Of a DNA stretch of 64,000 bases, positions 9,831 through 54,145 are shown piece after piece. Position 1 is the stretch's first letter, and each line of letters opens with the position of its first letter. The translations under genes and the position numbers were made by a program. Under the pieces are notes generated by a model, which saw only the letters and a program-made list of their open reading frames with translations, made no database searches and was not told the origin of the DNA. Origin of the DNA: Anolis carolinensis (lineage: Eukaryota); contig NC_085845.1 in assembly GCF_035594765.1 (NCBI RefSeq), positions 173,492,897 through 173,556,896 on the forward strand, read 5' to 3'.

Positions 9831-10948
9831 ATCACCAAGTATGGTGGCAGCAGGCTGGATTAGAGAGTGTGGAACCAGCCATGTGGCAAATGCATCTCAG
9901 TACAAAGGCATGGGAGGTGTTGGGAAGTTGAGGTGAAACAGCTAGAAGATGCTACTGCCCACCAGTATCTGCCATCTGAAGTAATGGCCTGAGTCTGAAC
10001 TGAGTATGGATCCTTTTTACTTTTATAGCATAGGATTGAGATGTTTTTGTTGTCAGGTGAGGATGATTTCTCTGTGTGGGTCACACATACAGTTGAACGT
10101 TATGCAGGAGGAAGAAACAATGGGAGTTAGGAAATGTACTTGAATGCAAGGGCTTTGCTGCCATGGAAACCAATGCATGTTGAAGTATGTGGCCTTGTCA
10201 ATATGCCCCGTTAAGCACAGAGCACACCATTTTAATACCTCTTTCAGCTTAGCCAAAACTGTGATATGTACCCTGTAGGCATGAAAGTTGGTTCTGTTGT
10301 TACTTCTGTCGTTGTTTCAGGTAATCTGTGCAGACTCCCATCCCATTTCATACATGGATGGTGTCAACCAATGGCCAAGAAAACCATCTTCTAATAACAC
10401 ACCTTTGACAATTTCTGTTAATCATATATACCACCACCAGGATTTTCTGCACCCATTATGAGCATTATCATACCATTAAAAGCACAGAAAACCAGTGTGG
10501 TATAATTACTGGGATGCTGAGTTAGGAAATACAATGTTCAAGTCCTTGCTGAGCCATGAAACTCACTGAATGATTCTTGGACTACTTTCCCTTCAGCTCA
10601 CCCTTACAGGATTGTTGTAAGGAAAAAAGAAAATAATCTTGAATTGAAATAAAGCAAAGGGAAGGCAAAATATACATGCAATCAGCCAATCAACCAATTC
10701 AAGCATCTCACACACACTTTTCCCAGTTGGTCAATAAGGTGGGTAATTTTCCCATCTTCAGTTCTTTATCTCACTGAGAACAGCAGTTCTGTCTGATATC
10801 AAAGCATGTAACTAGGGGAAAGGGAAGCTGGTAAACTCTTGGCCAAAGGGATCTGATGATAACAAAAAAAGGGTGGAGAGAAGCAACCTACAGGGTAAAG
10901 TTTGCTGCAGTTAAGAGAGACATTCATCTTGAAGCAGCAGTGGTAGTC

Positions 10949-11767
10949 ATGCATGTCACAGCACTTTTAGCAAGTGTGCTGCTACTTTGCAAGATGAGGG
11001 AGACCTGCTGCCAGAGATCTCCTTATGCTGAAACAACTTCCCTCTCTCAAGCACGGAAGGTTTTCCCAAGTGAGTCTTCTCAACCTCATGATCAACTCAA
11101 CAAGATGGCTCAATCCAACCCTGACATCCATCTCATCCGGAGTGATCTGGGCACCCAAGCAAAGCCCTACAGCCTGTCTCTCTCCCCTGAAGACTACCAT
11201 CATTACATACCCAAACCTAAGCGTCTGCGTACCACTCGGCTGATGAAACTGTTAGGATCTTCCTATGACCCTTTCTGGATGTCTGTTGAAGATCCACGAG
11301 ATCAAAATACCAGCCTAGATTATTTGGGCACCTTGAGTGTGGACCTGGCTGAACGTACAGCCCGATTTCGGAAGAAGCTCCTGCAGGAGGCAAAGCAGTT
11401 AGATCTTTCTGAACTTTTGTCTTCTAGGGACAGGACCTCCCATAACCAGAGTCAATCTTTCGTTGACCACCTCCACCAATGGCTAGTGGACAGTGCTACC
11501 TGCCATCTGACCTCTTCCTGGGTGAATATGGGATCCATTTTCTGGCCCCGCTGGGTACGTCATACAGAGTGTGATCTTAATCATGCCAGTTGCTCTTGGC
11601 CTCCTGGCATGACCTGTCATCCTGCCCAGGTAACCCACATCAAACTGTTAGCATGGCATTGTTGGGTTAGCAGGGACCAAACCTTTGGTCCTCGGAAGTC
11701 TCTTCAGCAATGTGCTTGGAGGCAAGTCCCTTACCCTGTGGTGGCAACCTGCAAGTGTTCCTGCTGA
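10949..11767 (+). CDS. NOG4: Noggin-family secreted cystine-knot protein, most likely noggin4 (single exon, 272 aa from the second Met)
   Basis: Within ORF 10856-11767. The ATG at 10949 (gtcATGc) precedes a signal peptide (MHVTALLASVLLLC). Noggin motifs: LLGSSYDPFWMS, W..SATC...W...G..FWPRWVR, CSWPPGMTC, 9 C-terminal Cys ending CKCSC. The PYSLSLSPEDY segment and the position next to GCAT fit noggin4 rather than noggin1/2. Confidence 0.9.
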   Translation: MHVTALLASVLLLCKMRETCCQRSPYAETTSLSQARKVFPSESSQPHDQLNKMAQSNPDIHLIRSDLGTQAKPYSLSLSPEDYHHYIPKPKRLRTTRLMKLLGSSYDPFWMSVEDPRDQNTSLDYLGTLSVDLAERTARFRKKLLQEAKQLDLSELLSSRDRTSHNQSQSFVDHLHQWLVDSATCHLTSSWVNMGSIFWPRWVRHTECDLNHASCSWPPGMTCHPAQVTHIKLLAWHCWVSRDQTFGPRKSLQQCAWRQVPYPVVATCKCSC

Positions 11768-12166: not shown

Positions 12167-12185
12167 AATAAATGTATTTAATAAA
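12167..12185 (+). terminator. Probable noggin4 polyadenylation signals
   Basis: AATAAA at 12167-12172 and 12180-12185, about 400 nt after the stop codon. Confidence 0.55.
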
Positions 12186-18209: not shown

Positions 18210-18421
18210 TATGTAAAATAAATTGGAGGATTGGGAATCAAATAACTAGAAGATTTACCCTGAACACTATTGACCATTGTTTGACTATTTTTTGATTCAA
18301 CAAGGAATTGCTACTTGCTCCTACTAAACATTTATTTGCTGCCTTTGTTGACTTAGCAGCAACTGTTGGCTGGATTGATAGAAACCTGTTGTGGCATAAA
18401 GTGACCAACAGTAATATAATT

Positions 18422-19120
18422 GTATTGTCGAAGGCTTTCATGGCTGGAATCACTGGTTTATAAACCTCCCTTGCCTAGTTTCCAACATATCTCACAACCC
18501 CTCTATTCTGCCTTGATCAGACCACACCTGGAATACTGTGTCCAATTCTGGGCACCGCAGTTGAAGGGTGATGTTGACAAGCTGGAAAGCGTCCAGAGGA
18601 GGGCGACTAAAATGATTAAGGGTCTGGAGAACAAGCCCTATGAGGAGTGGCTCAAAGAGCTGGGCATGTTTAACCTGCAGAAGAGGTGGCTGAGAGGAGA
18701 CATGATAGCCATGTATAAATATGTGAGGGGAAGTCATAGGGAGGAGGGAGCAAGCTTGTTTGCTGCAGACTAGGACACGGAACAATGGTTTCAAACTACA
18801 GGAAAGGAGATTCCACCCGAACATTAGGAAGAACTTCCTGAATGTGAGAGCTGTTCAGCAGTGGAACTCTCTGCCCCGGAGTGTGGTGGAGGCTCCTTCT
18901 TTGGAGGCTTTTAAGCAGAGGCTGGATGGCCATCTGTCGAGGGTGCTTTGAATGCGATTTTCCTGCTTCTTGCAGGGGGTTGGACTGGATGGCTCATGAG
19001 GTCTCTTCCAACTCTATGATTCTATGATTCTCTGAGGATGCCTGCCACAGATGTGGGCGAAACGTCAGGAGAGAAAGCTTCTGGAACATGGCCATACAGC
19101 CCAAAATACCCACAGCAACC
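18422..19120. mobile_element. Penelope-like element remnant with an internal CR1 (18500-19030)
   Basis: Duplication CAGTAATATAATT at 18409-18421 / 19121-19133; the Penelope terminal repeat is interrupted by CR1 ([19 protein letters not shown]; ctatgatt tail). Confidence 0.8.
19028..19073 (+). ncRNA. Minimal type I hammerhead ribozyme motif (Penelope terminal repeat), intact core
   Basis: TTCT-CTGAGGA-T-GCCTGC-CACAGAT-GTGGGC-GAAA-CGTC-AGGA: CUGANGA and GAAA cores, 6-bp stem II, palindromic ACGU stem III, GUC cleavage triplet ending at 19066. Confidence 0.7.
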
Positions 19121-20202
19121 CAGTAATATAATTATCTATGGTTTCTAATCATGGACCACTATTCTGATACAACTGCTAGAACAAGAGTTGACATTTCTGA
19201 CTCATTAAATGATCCTATCCCTATGAATAAGAAAGTAAAACAAGGATGCCTATTGGCATCATCACTCTTTAATGTACAGTATATATGAATGACAAAATCC
19301 CAGCATTGCATGGCTAAGAATTTTTCCCTGCCTTTAAAAGCAATCCATATATCTATTTTGCATGCTTTTTTGCTTCTGTTATGCAAGATTAACACAAGTG
19401 GACTATTACAACCATGCCCTCTAGTGATCAAGCTGAAACAATGCTCTTCATGTATAGATTTTTGAGGGGGGAAAGAGGAGCTGGTTGAATTAGGGTTTGG
19501 CATGGGAGGAATAAAATCATTATTTCTTCTCCCATTTCAATGCTTGAGCTCTGGAGGAGCAATCTGGCAGAATGTGGTCACGATGTGCAATGATATCACC
19601 TGGAGTTTATAAGAACTACAACAGCAGTTGGAAATCTAACTTCCCGCTAGAAAGAAAACTGTTAAGCTTTCTGACAAACTGGTTAAATGCATGATTTACA
19701 TCACTGAGAAGTTATCCACAATAATAATTACATCACTTCGAAGTTATCCACAAAAATATTTAGACTACCTTGTGCTTCATCACCAGAAAAGCACACTATT
19801 TGGATTTCAGTGTTTGGACACTGCACACCATTAAAGTTCATTCCTACTCTACTCATGTCCAGAGTGATTTGTTTTAGGGCAGAGATTTGTTTTAGGGCAA
19901 GTTGTGGTTTTAGAAATGTTGGTATAGTGCAAGCACTACAAATTTTGCACCACTGGTATATTTTACAATGTATACACCTAGACTTTCTGCTTATTTGTCA
20001 TGAGCATATTGAAAAATTAGTAATATGTGGTGGATTGGGTGCAGGAACTGGTGAAAAGCCCTAAACTTACACTTGCAGCCACGAGATCCTTCAACCACAC
20101 TTTACTTTGTGAGATAAGAAAGGAATATGAGTCTCCAGTGTTAAGTCTTTCCTTGTAGCCCTTGCAGGTAAAATATACTTGTTTTTAAAAGAAAGCTAGG
20201 AT

Positions 20203-20430
20203 TCACCAGGTGACCTAAAAGCACCACATCCCACCTGATCTTGGATGCTAAGGAGGATCAACCTTGGTTAGTGTATGGATGGGAGACTACCAAATAGTAC
20301 CAATTGCTATAGATTATATTTTGAAGGTAGGAATTGGCAAAACTACCTCTCATTATTCCTTGCCTAAGAAAACCTGATAAAATTCATGAGGTTGCTGTAA
20401 GTTGACAGGCCACCTGAAAGCAAATGCAAG
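20203..20430 (+). mobile_element. 5S rRNA-derived SINE (5S-Sauria-like)
   Basis: ctgatcttggatgctaaggagga...ttggttagtgtatggatgggagac resembles 5S rRNA boxes A/C; followed by the ccttgcctaagaaaacc...gtaagttga tail shared with other SINEs here. Confidence 0.7.
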
Positions 20431-21537
20431 TTCGTACTCACAAACAGGATTCATCAGACATTGATGTTTCTATATTCAACATCAAGTTCATTGCATATGT
20501 AATATGAACACCTAAGAGCCAATACAACAAAATAAATCATGTGAGGTAATACTAAAATCTAGTAGCCACTAAGAGAGATGAAGAAATGGGAAAGAAGTGG
20601 GAGGCACCAGCTGGCTTATGCAATGATTACTTGAATGCAAAGATCCATTATATTTCATGGGTCTAGATACCTGATCTCTGCCCTCAATGTGGGGGGGATG
20701 ATGGAAGTTGAATGTATTGTAGTTCTTCATTTTTGTTGAAGCACAATTCAAGTTGCCAGCCCTGCCTTCCTATCAGACATCCCATCTATTTCAGTGAAAA
20801 GAAGTTTCGAAGAAACTGAGGTCAACATCACCTTTATTACTCTGCCCTCCTCCAGGCACTGTGGCAATTGAGATTGGAGTTAAAACACACTGGCATGTAT
20901 TAGACTGAAACCAGACATGAAAGAGTGCTGGAAATAATAAGAAAAGGACTGAAAATCATTCAGCCCTCCTACTATTGCTGAACTTTAACTCCCAATATCT
21001 TTAGGGAACAAAGGAAATGGTGAACAATGCTGAGAGCTGCAGTCGAACAATATGTGGAGAGTGTGCATAGATCCATTGTTCAGAACAAGGGAATATTACA
21101 TTTTTGTACCACAAATACTTGAAACTCATAGTCAAGCTGGCTGGAGATTTCTGGGAGCTATACAGTAGTACAAAAAAATAACTGACCCAAGTTCTGGTTT
21201 TCTTTTAATATCTTATGAAGCTGAATATGACTGCTTTGGCAAGAAGAGAATGTGGACAGAGTCTACAATCCAGCAGAGTAGCAAGCTATTGTTGAAAGCG
21301 ATAATCTGTTCTTCAAAAAGTGACATGGCCCACTTCCAGACTTTGGTTTTGAAAGTCATCCTATGGCCAGACTTTGGAAAAGCTCTCTCTCTCTTTTTTC
21401 TCTTTTTTTTTTTACCGTAACAGCCAGCCAGCAGGGCCAATGTCTATGGGAGCCCAATGGCAGATTCTGGGAGCTGTACTCCAGAAACATGACTCTTCCA
21501 AGCTCTGCATGTGCCACAGCTTTCACTTTTCTCCTGT

Positions 21538-21689
21538 TCAAGGTAAAGCTCCGTGTTTGCGCCCCACTTCAGTAAAGGCCTCCACACATCGGTCTATATC
21601 TTCTTCACTGTGAACAGCTGAGATCTGCACCCGGATACGAGCTTTTCCCTTTGGCACCACTGGGTAGCTGAATCCAATGACGTAGATGC
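21538..21689 (-). CDS. GCAT: GCAT exon 9 (terminal)
   Basis: [50 protein letters not shown]; the nine exons sum to 1257 nt = 418 aa + stop with consistent phases. Confidence 0.95.
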
Positions 21690-23141
21690 CTTTGGGGAGA
21701 AAAGAGAAAGCTTAATCACTTGTTACACATCTGTCTGCCCTTCTAATGAGCTCATGGTAGTATACAGTGGTATCTTCCACACTTTATACTCACAAGTCAT
21801 GCAGTGCACTTCAATTCTCAGTAAGGACTAGAAACTGGATCTCTGGTGTTCCAGATCAGCACTCTAACTATTATACTGCAGTGCTTGTTTCAGATTTTAT
21901 ATTGTGGCATGTTTATACTTATCTATTCTATTGTCTTAATTTTATTTTGTGAGCCTTGGCCATTGAGATGGGCAGTTAACAAAAAGAAGAATATATATGA
22001 CCAGCAAAAGCAGACCATATCGGGAACTGCTTTATTCTGAACTGGAATATTGCATCTATCTAGCCCAGTACTATCTATCAACTCTGGCTGGTTTTCTAGC
22101 TCTACCTAGAAATTCCCAGTATCTCCAATTGGTTTTCCATCCAAGTACTAATCAGACCAGAATCCAAAATTAGACCAACATGCTTAAGGTTAGTTTGGTA
22201 GTACATATAACAGAACTTACAACTATGGGTCAAACTGGTTTTCTGAAGATAATGCCGACCCTATGGAGCATTGAGAAAATCTCCTGTGAAAAGATGCAAC
22301 TTGGGCTCTTGAAGTTGCACTAATTTCCAGAAGTTCCCAAGGAGGCTCTGAGAGTCACAATCCAAAAAGGGTAAATATTTCCAAGCTGATTAAAACCAAA
22401 TCCACAAGTCATTTAAACAAGGACTGGCTCCATAATAAGGCAGAATGTGATGGCAACAGATTTAGGGAGAGATGAAAGGTTGAGCCTTTCATCTCCCAAG
22501 AACAAGAAGAAATGCAGGTGTGAGACTTTCAGCCTTAGTTGCCAATATAATGAGCTGGTTTTGGGTCAAAATATTCTAACTTGTGAGAGTGAAAGTGCCA
22601 TTTGCTACTGTGCTTAAGAATTGAGATGTCCCCTGCTTCATCAAGGAAATCCAAATTTATGTCTATGCATTTGAAGTGTGTGTGTGTGTGTGTGTGTTTG
22701 GGGGGGGGGGGGGGATAGTCCTGAATCAGAAGGATGCTTGCCTGCAAGCGATGCCAGCTGGGATCTATCTTGTTTGTAACTTGGGGACTGCCTGTATTTG
22801 CAGCCGGAGTCATTTGCATTTCCCAAATTCTAGGCTAAAGCTGAGTTTTCCTGGTTTCTTGTGGAACCCCTTGCTAAAGGAGAATAAACTTCCCTGGTTG
22901 CCTGTCATTGCTCAGTAAAGATCTATATGTTTGAAACAAAGGGCAGGTTCTATGTTGAATTTTATTTGCCTAAGAAATGCTATGAATACTTGTTACTCTA
23001 ACATGCAGTATCAGTGAGTAATATCTGCACACACTATAAAATGGAAAACGGGCACTTAAAACATTCTATGGTTAACTGGACCCAACTCTGATGGCAAAGC
23101 ATTCACAAGCTACACAAAGCTTCCTATCACAAAACAGTTAC

Positions 23142-29957: not shown

Positions 29958-30574
29958 CTAAAGTGTTGGAAAAAAGCAACAGTAAAGAGTTGTATTATTC
30001 CTAATGTTACAGCCAGAAAAGTAGGCTGAGCAAGATTTACACTTCCTGGGAATAGATATTTGGTTCTGTGCCAAATCTGAAGTTGAATAAAACCATATCC
30101 CATAAGCAGATACATGCAAATACGCTAATTCTGCATCAGCTGTAGGTTAGATTCCTTTGCTAATTTTCTTCCTGAAGAAAGCAATTACTACTTTTAGCTA
30201 TTAACTTCCCACTGTACAGAAGTCTTCACAATTCATATTATAATTCAGGAATAATTACACAAAGAAAGCTCAGTTTTATGCAGAAGTTCTGAATTATTAA
30301 TAGCATGTTTTATGCACACAGTGTTGTGCAGAATGCAACATTTCAGTGAAAAAAACATGAAATATTTGCCAAGAATGAGCCCAACATCATTATTTTCCAG
30401 AAAAATGCTTCCCTGGGCAAAGCGACGATTTTCAAATTCATTCAAATAAAGTAAATCCTAAACCACAAATATTCTTGTCCAGGATTATTATTGTCAGGGC
30501 TTTGCAACATTAAAAAACCCCACACGTATTGATGCAAAATAAAACCTGATTTTCTACTACTTCTAATGTGTGTT

Positions 30575-30885
30575 GTCAAAGGCTTTCATGGCCGGAATCA
30601 CCAGGTTGCTGTGAGTTTTCCGGGTTGTATGGCCATGTTCCAGAAGCATTCTCTCCTGAGGTTTTGCCCACATCTATGGCAGGCATCCTCAGAGGCTGTA
30701 AGGTCTGTTGGGAAACTAGGCAAGTGGGGTTTATATATATCTGTGGAATGTTCATAAACCCCACTTGCCTAGTTTCCAACAGACCTCACAACCTCTAAGG
30801 ATACCTGTCATAGATGAGGGTGAAACGTCAGGAGAGAATGCTTCTGGAACATAGCCATACAACCCGGAAAATTCACAGCAACCCA
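30575..30885. mobile_element. Penelope terminal repeats in inverted arrangement (GCAT intron 2)
   Basis: About 30603-30735 is the reverse complement of about 30754-30884; both arms carry mutated hammerhead motifs. Confidence 0.85.
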
Positions 30886-31284
30886 GTACTCAAATGTTCT
30901 TTCCATTTCTAGCTAACTCTACTAGAACTGGCAGAATTTCAGTTTTAACTTCATGCAGAATTTCAATTTCTCCCCCACTTTTTAAAATGCAGATCCTTTT
31001 GCTTTTTTTTTAAATGCAGGTTTGATTATTTGCTTTTGCAGGTCTGATTATTTATAGATTTGATATTATCTTTAGATCCTTCCGTGCAACCAAAAGTCAT
31101 CTTCAGCCACAAGATGGCCACAGAGCTATGCTGGAGGACCTAGAGATTCCTACAGAGGGGCTTACCGGGGTTTCAACAGGATAACAATTTTCAAATGTGT
31201 GGATTTTCCACTTTCACTGGGGGAAGGCACCCTAAACACCATAAAACTATGGTACTTTTACAAAAGTGAAACACTCTTTCCTAC

Positions 31285-51673: not shown

Positions 51674-53300
51674 GTGGAAGGTGGGGCGCTCGGGACCACC
51701 CACCCTCCTCCCAACAAAGGGGTGGCATGGACCTTGGAGCCCCCTTCTCTAGATCTCCCCTTAAATAACATTACAGTAGTAAGTCAATACATGAGCCTGG
51801 CTGCCTAAGGAGAAGAAGGAGTTGGGGAGGAAAGGGGACACCAAATAGCACCCCAATAAAAAAGTCATAGAAAATGGGGCTCCGGCTTTGTAATAATATT
51901 TATAATATCCAACGAAGGGGGGACTTGGACCTTGGACCCCCCCTTCCCTAGATCTCCCCTTAAGTAACATTACAGTAGTAAGTCAATACATGAGCCTGGC
52001 TGCATTAGGAGAAGGAGGAGTTGGGGAGGAAAGGGGCACCAAATAGCACCCCAATAAAAAAGTCATAGGAAATGGGGCTCCGGCTTTGTAATAATATTTA
52101 TAATACCCAACGAAGGGGGGATATGGACTTTGGACCACCCCTCCCTTTTCTTGATCTCTCCTTAAATAATATTAGTAGTAAACAAATACATGAGCCTGTA
52201 TTTGGAGGAGTTGGGGAGCGGGAAGGGAAGGGGGCACCAAACGGCGCCCCAATTAAAAAAAAGTCATTGGAAATGGGGTCTCTGCTTTGTAATAATAATT
52301 ACATATAAACCCCTATCTCCCCTTAAATAACTTTACAGTAGTAAATACATAAGCCTGGCTGCATAAGGAGAAGGAGGAGTTGGGGAGGGGAGGAAGGGGA
52401 AAACACCAAACAGCACCCCAATAAAAAGTCATAGGAAATTGAGGCTCGGCTTTGAAATATTTATATTATATGTGGAAGGTGGGGCGCTCGGGACCACCCT
52501 CCTCCAACAAAGGGGTGACATGGACCCTGGACCCCCATTTCCTTGATCTCCCTTTAAATAACATTATAGGAGCAGATAAACACATGAGCCTGGCTGCATA
52601 AGGAGAAGGAGGGGTTGGAGAAGGAGGGGGGCACCGAACAGCACCCCAATAAAATGTCATAGGAAATGGGGCCCCAGATTTGTAATAATATTGATATTAT
52701 TATTACACATAAACACCCCAATAAATGGCCCTAGGAAATGGGGCACCGGCTTTGTACTAATATTGACATTATATATACAAAAACCCCTCTGGACATGATC
52801 CTTGGGGTTCCCCGAATTTTCGGTCACTTCTCTCGTATTTAATATGGAGCTTCTGTATCAGGAGACGGAGTTGGGGTGCGGGTGGGGGGGCAAACAGCCC
52901 CCCAATAAATCGTCCTAGGAAGGAAATGAAGTCTCGGGTGTTTAGTTTTGAAAAATGATCCCCTTGGATTCCACTTTAATTTCGCCCCTTCCCCTCGTGT
53001 TTGTGGAGCTTCCATACTTGGGAAGAAGGAGGCGAAGTTGGGATGGGGGTGGGCACCCCAATAAATGATCCTAGGCAATAGGGTCACGGCTTTTGTATAC
53101 GACCCCCCTGGACATGATCCCCATCCGATTCCAGTTTGTTTATGTTCCTATTCCCGTGTTTATGGAGCTTCTAACTAAAAGAGACGGGGTTGGGGAGGGG
53201 GGCACCCAACAGCCCCCCAATAAAAGGATCTTATGCAATGGGGTCCCGGCTTTCTTGGTTCTTATTAACCCCCCGTGGACCCCACTTATTCTCCCCCCCC
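51674..53300. repeat. Degenerating ~198-bp tandem array upstream of H1.0
   Basis: Unit ...gatctcccct taaataacattacagtagtaagtcaatacatgagcctggctgc...ggagttgggg...caccccaataaa...gtcatag.aaatggggctccggctttgtaataata; period 198 for the first units; about 9 units. Confidence 0.85.
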
Positions 53301-53943: not shown

Positions 53944-54145
53944 CAGGCATGGGCAAAGTTGGGGTCTTTCTCCAGGTGTTTTGGACTGCAACTCCCACCA
54001 TTCCTAACAGCCTCAGGCCCCTTCCTTTTCCCCCTCGGCCGCTTAAGCGGCCGAGGGGGAAAAGGAAAGGGCCTGAGGCTGTTAGGAATGGTGGGAGTTG
54101 CAGTCCAAAACACTTGGAGAAAGACCCCAACTTTGCCCATGCCTG
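53944..54145. mobile_element. 202-bp near-perfect palindrome (hAT-MITE family)
   Basis: Centre GCTTAAGC with no spacer; only about 2 mismatches between the 101-bp arms. Confidence 0.9.

What the first reader, a model, noticed from the sequence alone, without database searches (positions are those of the whole stretch)
19028..19073. Hammerhead ribozyme motif hidden in Penelope terminal repeats; a CR1 tail rebuilds its stem I
Seen in the sequence: CUGAGGA-U-[GCCUGC/GUGGGC]-GAAA-CGUC-AGGA, a complete hammerhead core with a palindromic ACGU in place of stem III. Established: Penelope-like elements carry minimal type I hammerheads that are thought to cleave as dimers. A CR1 inserted into the 5' arm of stem I (the native ctcacaacc is left at about 18491-18499). 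The CR1 tail nonetheless supplies UUCU, which can still pair with AGGA (U-A, C-G, U.G, U-A). Inference: a chimeric, possibly still active self-cleaving site on the noggin4 strand, 7 kb past that gene, which could clip read-through RNA.
Basis: partly seen in the sequence, partly recalled or inferred. Interest (0 to 1): 0.7.

Follow-up and report, generated by a model that had tools for sequence, protein, structure and literature searches.

The report
Anole Penelope hammerhead split by CR1
This is a real but ordinary leftover: one of more than 14,000 identical copies of a lizard jumping gene's already-described self-cutting RNA motif, with a second jumping gene inserted just in front of it, and it likely does not cut RNA at this spot.

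Summary
The motif is there as described: core at 19032-19066 (+), with a 530-nt CR1 between the element's two halves. It is the hammerhead of PAc/Poseidon_Ac, tested by Frangieh et al. 2024 (PMC11167929), who saw cleavage only with the element's own protein. The genome holds 14,628 exact cores. 'CR1 rebuilds stem I' is largely a by-product. The two inner bases are native or shared with the CR1 tail. CR1 joins where its tail matches the target, and the same junction arose independently on another contig. CR1 tails also interrupt this repeat at other positions, with no excess here (9 seen, 6.1 expected). This copy stops at ORF +83-87, short of the 172 nt PAc needed for insertion activity in vitro, and has no intact same-strand partner in the window. 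Its predicted fold buries the core. Noggin has poly(A) signals 6.9 kb earlier. The transcript shown near the site is GCAT's long 3' UTR, on the opposite strand, ending about 190 nt away. Verdict: likely an inert fossil. The scan noted this hammerhead before elsewhere in this genome. One lead: a native hairpin predicted to cover the core, which CR1 removed.

The parts
18409..18421 (.). Left copy of the 13-bp target-site duplication (CAGTAATATAATT) of the Penelope insertion
18422..18459 (-). Inverted 'tail' piece of the Penelope repeat (about +85 to +125 counted from C3)
   Evidence: (row L060)
18460..18499 (+). Left arm of the Penelope terminal repeat, ending in ctcacaacc; holds the displaced CUC(A) and the outer base(s) of the native stem I 5' arm
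   Evidence: (90% to other copies)
18500..19031 (+). 5'-truncated CR1 LINE (ORF2 end, 3' UTR, ATTCTATG tail); no clear duplication (0-1 bp), C-run shared at the 5' junction, CT shared at the 3' junction
   Evidence: median 91.5% to 19 other copies; a longer copy at 91.5% encodes RVT_1; octomer tail described in PMC2612034
19028..19031 (+). Chimeric stem I 5' arm UUCU (UU from the CR1 tail; CU native or shared)
19032..19066 (+). Minimal hammerhead core: CUGAGGA, extra U, stem II, GAA, ACGU palindrome, C17 (predicted cut after 19066, 26 nt after the element's ATG at 19038-40)
   Evidence: matches the PAc RNA printed in PMC11167929 Methods at all but one loop base, 19048
19067..19070 (+). Stem I 3' arm AGGA (native)
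19071..19120 (+). Rest of the Penelope piece; ends at ORF +83 (to +87 with shared bases)
19121..19133 (.). Right copy of the 13-bp target-site duplication
19252..21688 (-). GCAT last exon with long 3' UTR; contigs end at 19252/19254, just past a - strand ATTAAA at 19268-73, about 190 nt from C17, antisense to the hammerhead
10835..11767 (+). Noggin ORF (noggin4 by neighbourhood with GCAT); AATAAA at 12167 and 12180

Best explanation
A short, non-coding stub of the anole Penelope-like element PAc (Poseidon_Ac), carrying that element's published minimal hammerhead, has a 5'-truncated CR1 inserted two bases in front of the catalytic core, and the result is likely an inert fossil rather than a working ribozyme. 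Shown: the stub has a 13-bp duplication and an inverted tail, and the CR1 splits it between positions -3 and -2. Inferred: CR1 joined where its tail (..ATT-CT..) matched the target (..AC-CT..), so a pairing UUCU arm is automatic. Inferred: the site would rarely cut, because the parent motif needs PAc protein and likely a partner copy, this stub lacks the ORF RNA that PAc needed for insertion in vitro, the tail favours an off-register helix, and the RNA shown nearby runs on the other strand.
For: Identity with PAc: core and flanks match the template printed in PMC11167929, and the cut 26 nt after ATG agrees. That paper: no cleavage without protein, first 172 ORF nt required for DNA cleavage/extension, no RNA-seq reads ending at the cut. 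Abundance: 14,628 exact cores, 39,916 native junctions, 38,019 strict CR1 tails. No hot spot: 9 of 14 distinct loci were CR1-Penelope junctions in the 15 positions before GAGG, against 6.1 expected (Poisson p=0.16); other anchors gave 9 of 13, 4 of 10, 3 of 10 and 1 of 5. Microhomology: 11 of 26 junctions overlap by 2 or more bases against 15.6% expected (p about 0.001); TTCT is a reported CR1 site preference (PMC2612034). Of the 9 junctions at this site, 5 destroy C3 and 2 give UUCU. Direction: 9 of 9 long CR1s checked have the left Penelope arm upstream, one of them in antisense. Folding: first stem I pair 0.0000; UUCUCU:AGAGAA and GAUG:CGUC form instead; the active double hammerhead lies 16-20 kcal/mol above two monomers. 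Partner: the next + strand copy (30795) has G5->A. RNA: the GCAT intron joint CT..AC is in 3 runs of 3 studies and not in the DNA-like run, and one spliced contig runs to 19254.
Against: The core is fully intact although the copy is about 8-10% diverged. Chance of that is 0.25-0.34 for 13 key bases and 0.07-0.12 for 25 bases: not significant, but no support for decay either. With 45-nt flanks the chimera's gap to the active dimer (17.0) is smaller than that of 15 of 17 intact native copies (median 21.8), because CR1 removed a hairpin that covers the native core; in the monomer model with 60-nt flanks 20 of 30 natives are worse. The folding model also puts the native ribozyme, which does cleave with protein, far from the active fold, and it ignores tertiary energy, so it discriminates poorly. 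The 172-nt requirement was measured for DNA insertion, not for help with RNA cleavage. Contigs cannot show strand or ends, so + strand transcription is not excluded. The expected count of 6.1 is rough: the patterns were looser than the counts, and element ages were ignored.
Confidence: 0.86

Rival explanations
1. The chimera is chemically competent in vitro (as a forced dimer, at high Mg2+, or with PAc protein) but has no role in the cell, because the + strand is hardly transcribed here.
For: All core bases, G10.1-C11.1, the palindrome and a 4-pair stem I are present. Min-HHRs show low dimer activity (PMC4209133). The native core-covering hairpin is gone.
Against: Off-register helix made by the tail; stem I is weaker than native with short flanks (17 of 17 natives closer to the active dimer at 5/6 and 12/10 flanks); ORF +88..+172 is missing. 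This rival overlaps the best explanation in its biological outcome.
Confidence: 0.09
2. One reading: an active site that clips noggin4 read-through and so insulates the convergent noggin4 and GCAT genes.
For: Same strand as noggin; lies between two convergent genes, about 190 nt beyond GCAT's distal 3' end; intact core.
Against: Two AATAAA signals 6.9 kb earlier, and 10 more + strand signals listed before the site; no cis partner; the parent needs protein; one exact core per 127 kb genome-wide makes such a position unremarkable.
Confidence: 0.03
3. The CR1 piece was captured by the Penelope reverse transcriptase (template jump to CR1 RNA and back at the hairpin before the core), or CR1 targets this site.
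For: Two independent loci have the same 3' junction, and three leave the same left end CACAACC; no clear duplication; Penelope inversions also often turn near this spot.
Against: CR1 interrupts the repeat at many positions and in both orientations; no excess at this site (p=0.16); clustering follows tail microhomology.
Confidence: 0.02

Closest known systems
PAc hammerhead (Repbase Poseidon_Ac, Anolis carolinensis); Frangieh et al. 2024, PMC11167929 (read: text parts 1-3 of 4; supplement search and file 2, whose figures are images and gave no text)
   Same: Same core, stem II, palindrome, ATG overlap and cut position; one loop base differs (19048 C, seen in 6% of 109 copies).
   Different: This copy is a stub ending at ORF +83-87; its upstream repeat is pushed 530 nt away by CR1; stem I 5' arm is UUCU instead of ACCU.
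Minimal type I hammerheads (min-HHR) of metazoan Penelope-like elements; Cervera and de la Pena 2014, PMC4209133 (read: parts 1-2 of 4)
   Same: No helix III, palindromic 15.1-16.1, unpaired base between 9 and 10.1, G10.1-C11.1, short helix I; mostly single dispersed copies from truncated elements.
   Different: Helix II is 6 pairs here (7-8 given for Schistosoma); helix I is chimeric; no partner in tandem.
CR1 LINE 3' fragments with octomer tail; St John and Quinn 2008, PMC2612034 (read: part 1 of 3 and passages)
   Same: 5' truncation, ATTCTRTG octomer tail, junction bases that match the tail (TTCT preference).
   Different: Only that the target happens to be a ribozyme arm.

Membership tests
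PLE minimal type I hammerhead | Core CUGANGA ... GAAA ... UH | tested here: met
PLE minimal type I hammerhead | Unpaired base between 9 and 10.1, and G10.1-C11.1 pair | tested here: met
   U19039; G19040-C19058; feature from PMC4209133
PLE minimal type I hammerhead | Palindrome in place of helix III | tested here: met
   ACGU 19062-65
PLE minimal type I hammerhead | Short helix I can form | tested here: inconclusive
   4 pairs on paper, but pair probability 0.0000 in the ensemble; natives are also at most 0.0022
PLE minimal type I hammerhead | Lies in the terminal repeat of a Penelope-like element | tested here: met
   Matches the PAc pLTR-ORF junction
PLE minimal type I hammerhead | Second intact copy on the same transcript for a dimer | tested here: not met
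   One pattern match in 64 kb; the other + strand copy has G5->A. Beyond the window not examined.
PLE minimal type I hammerhead | Self-cleavage at C17 | not testable with these tools
   Needs a bench assay or raw stranded reads; only contigs were offered
Active PAc element / PAc RNA substrate | First 172 nt of the ORF present | tested here: not met
   Copy ends at +83-87; requirement from PMC11167929
Active PAc element / PAc RNA substrate | Tail and inverted end with AT-rich target | tested here: met
   Inverted tail 18422-18459; 13-bp AT-rich duplication
Rfam hammerhead families | Covariance-model match | tested here: not met
   No hammerhead hit at E<=10; likely because helix III is absent (inference)
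CR1 LINE | ATTCTRTG octomer tail and reverse-transcriptase ORF2 | tested here: met
   Tail at 19012-31 (PMC2612034); a 91.5% identical longer copy encodes RVT_1. No clade tree was built.

The most novel reading that the evidence does not exclude
Native PAc RNA is latched by a hairpin (CCUCA pairing with UGAGG of the core, predicted at P 0.97-0.98 in 17 intact copies), and this latch is why the ribozyme needs PAc protein. CR1 insertion cut the latch off, here and independently at L002, making natural unlatched hammerheads that cleave without the element's protein. This one would then cut + strand RNA at the boundary between the convergent noggin4 and GCAT genes.
Probability: 0.04. Interest if true: 0.5.

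Novelty: already known. Interest (0 to 1): 0.12.

Why it matters
As it stands it matters little. The ribozyme is published and tested, it exists in at least 14,628 exact copies, and one repeat landing in another is expected at these copy numbers. Two small points have use. First, CR1 tail/target microhomology explains why such junctions can look like designed repairs. Second, this locus and L002 are natural variants lacking the predicted core-covering hairpin, so they give a cheap test of why the PAc hammerhead needs protein. If the chimera did cleave alone and on a real transcript, it would show one retroelement switching on another's ribozyme.

Tried and rejected
Rfam scans of the window and of 18990-19110 found no hammerhead.

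Site-specific targeting by CR1 was suggested by L002 and rejected with four control anchors. Rows dropped before that count: 26 of 52 distinct loci failed the rule (CR1-like upstream and at least 22 of 30 ungapped matches to one Penelope copy). Most are chance 9-mer matches, but the rule under-counts the antisense anchors, where L075, L077, L078, L108 and L109 continue as Penelope by eye. It also scores mutated junctions (for example L088, L101, L102, L105) as negative overlap.

Three short ones (L066, L082, L097) showed no left arm and stay open.

Sequencing runs: no RNA holder listed on record; 7 of 24 runs were laid as RNA-like and 1 as a DNA control. The low or absent cover between 12.3 kb and 19 kb in unique bins is no evidence either way. 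The contig end at 19077 in run X7 is not an RNA end, because the DNA-like run also breaks at 19080, the repeat edge. Whether the CR1 is polymorphic could not be told, since paralogous copies give the skipping joint.

Folding used one temperature (32 C, 37 C) and secondary structure only; 17 of 30 natives with intact flanks were used for dimers. Three pair indices that I set for the competing helix were off register and read 0.00; that helix is taken from the printed structures instead.

Luense et al. 2017 (dimer cleavage) was not held; I rely on passages of the review PMC6765202. PMC6740152 (passages) was not relevant. The supplementary figures of PMC11167929 are images; Fig. S2C shows an RNA fold and may already depict the hairpin I call a latch. 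Literature searches. None was aimed at CR1-hammerhead chimeras, so I make no claim that these are absent from print.

Full report
Observation. The hammerhead is at the stated place: UUCU 19028-31, CUGAGGA 19032-38, an extra U, a 6-pair stem II with two G.U pairs, GAA, the palindrome ACGU, C17 at 19066 and AGGA 19067-70. A strict core pattern matches once in the window against 0.04 expected. Rfam has no matching hammerhead model at E<=10.

What it is. The Methods of Frangieh et al. 2024 (PMC11167929; text parts 1-3 of 4 read) print the RNA of PAc, the Poseidon element of Anolis carolinensis. By reading, its core matches the window's except at one loop base, and the cut lies 26 nt after the ATG in both. 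The paper shows that this hammerhead cleaves only when PAc protein is added, that cleavage is not needed for insertion in vitro, that the first 172 ORF nt are needed for DNA cleavage and extension, and that no RNA-seq reads begin or end at the cut. Cervera and de la Pena 2014 (PMC4209133, parts 1-2 of 4) define the class: no activity as monomer and low activity as dimers. The genome holds 14,628 exact copies of the 35-nt core, one per 127 kb. The window has six copies of the repeat; only this one matches the strict pattern.

Anatomy. A 13-bp duplication (18409-21 and 19121-33) brackets an inverted tail piece (18422-59), the left arm of the terminal repeat (18460-99), the CR1 (18500-19031) and the rest of the repeat up to ORF +83-87. 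The CR1 is 5'-truncated, ends in the ATTCTATG octomer described for CR1 (PMC2612034), and a longer copy at 91.5% identity encodes a reverse transcriptase. The two Penelope halves are contiguous across the CR1, so CR1 went into the stub.

Did CR1 rebuild stem I? The native arm is CCU against AGG in 26 of the first 30 exact-core copies on contig C1 (not a random sample). After insertion the inner CU is native or shared with the tail, and the tail's phase then fixes the next bases as UU. An exact search finds this junction twice in the genome. The second (L002) has a different CR1 5' end, tail length and Penelope subtype, so it is independent. I tested whether this marks a targeted site. In the 15 positions before GAGG, 9 of 14 distinct loci are CR1-Penelope junctions; 5 of the 9 destroy C3 and 2 give UUCU. 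Four control anchors give 9 of 13, 4 of 10, 3 of 10 and 1 of 5, the last two under-counted by the rule. Random insertion with 38,019 CR1 tails and 39,916 targets predicts about 6.1 per window (p=0.16 for 9). Junctions favour tail/target overlap: 11 of 26 share 2 or more bases against 15.6% expected (p about 0.001), in line with the TTCT preference reported for bird CR1. Nine of nine long CR1s checked have the left Penelope arm upstream. So the 'repair' is a by-product of how CR1 joins its target.

Could it still cut? In secondary-structure models the tail pairs out of register (UUCUCU with AGAGAA) and GAUG pairs with CGUC, burying the core; the first stem I pair has probability 0.0000. The active double hammerhead lies 16-20 kcal/mol above two monomers. 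With short flanks all 17 of 17 intact natives are closer to the active form; with 25-nt flanks 14 of 17 are; with 45-nt flanks only 2 of 17 are, because natives fold a CCUCA:UGAGG hairpin over the core (P 0.97-0.98) that CR1 removed. This last result is against my reading and is the basis of the novel case. The model also places the native ribozyme far from its active fold, so it is weak evidence either way. Firmer points are the missing ORF +88..+172 and the lack of an intact same-strand partner in 64 kb (30795 has G5->A). The intact core does not show selection: at 8-10% divergence the chance is 0.25-0.34 for 13 key bases.

Is it transcribed? Noggin (10835-11767, +; Pfam PF05806) has AATAAA at 12167 and 12180, 6.9 kb before the cut. 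Its last intron (21688-23141, CT..AC on +) is joined in three runs from three studies and not in the DNA-like run. One spliced contig runs to 19254, and a second run of the same study ends at 19252, just past a - strand ATTAAA. Two other runs have low-depth contigs reaching 19152 and 19077. The RNA shown near the site is therefore GCAT's long 3' UTR, antisense to the hammerhead. No run is on record as RNA and all are contigs, so + strand transcription and RNA ends remain untested.

Verdict. Real motif, known ribozyme, ordinary nested insertion; likely inert (0.86). Earlier notes of this scan describe the same hammerhead at other places in this genome; I used them as leads only. The supplementary figures of PMC11167929 could not be read and may already show the hairpin discussed here.

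Noticed in passing
window 19252-21688 (-): GCAT has at least two 3' ends: contigs stop at 20817 (after AATAAA 20833-38 on -) and at 19252/19254 (after ATTAAA 19268-73 on -), giving a 3' UTR isoform of about 2.3 kb.
   Followed up: partly
L043:1490-1506 and 16 other native copies: Native PAc repeats are predicted to fold CCUCA onto UGAGG of the catalytic core (P 0.97-0.98): a candidate latch behind the published protein dependence. No covariation test was done.
   Followed up: partly
L002 (G000:C6:39.91 Mb): Independent CR1 insertion at the same base of another Poseidon copy, giving the same UUCU arm; L059 is a third with the same left end.
   Followed up: yes
window 40607-40641 (-): A Penelope hammerhead copy with core boxes intact and G10.1-C11.1 changed to U-A (pair kept); it lies upstream of GCAT exon 1, outside the gene.
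   Followed up: no
window 30564-30888: Fold-back pair of Penelope ends in a GCAT intron; both cores damaged (G12->A on -, G5->A on +).
   Followed up: partly
L005, L009, L014, L026, L041, L044: Many inverted Penelope copies turn around within about 20 nt in front of the core.
   Followed up: no
window 49851-50438 (-): Linker histone (H1.0-like) ORF upstream of GCAT, with a GC-rich promoter region and a 198-bp tandem array at 51710-52301.
   Followed up: no
window 53944-54145: Near-perfect 101-bp inverted repeat (MITE-like) that draws several sub-threshold miRNA hits in Rfam.
   Followed up: no
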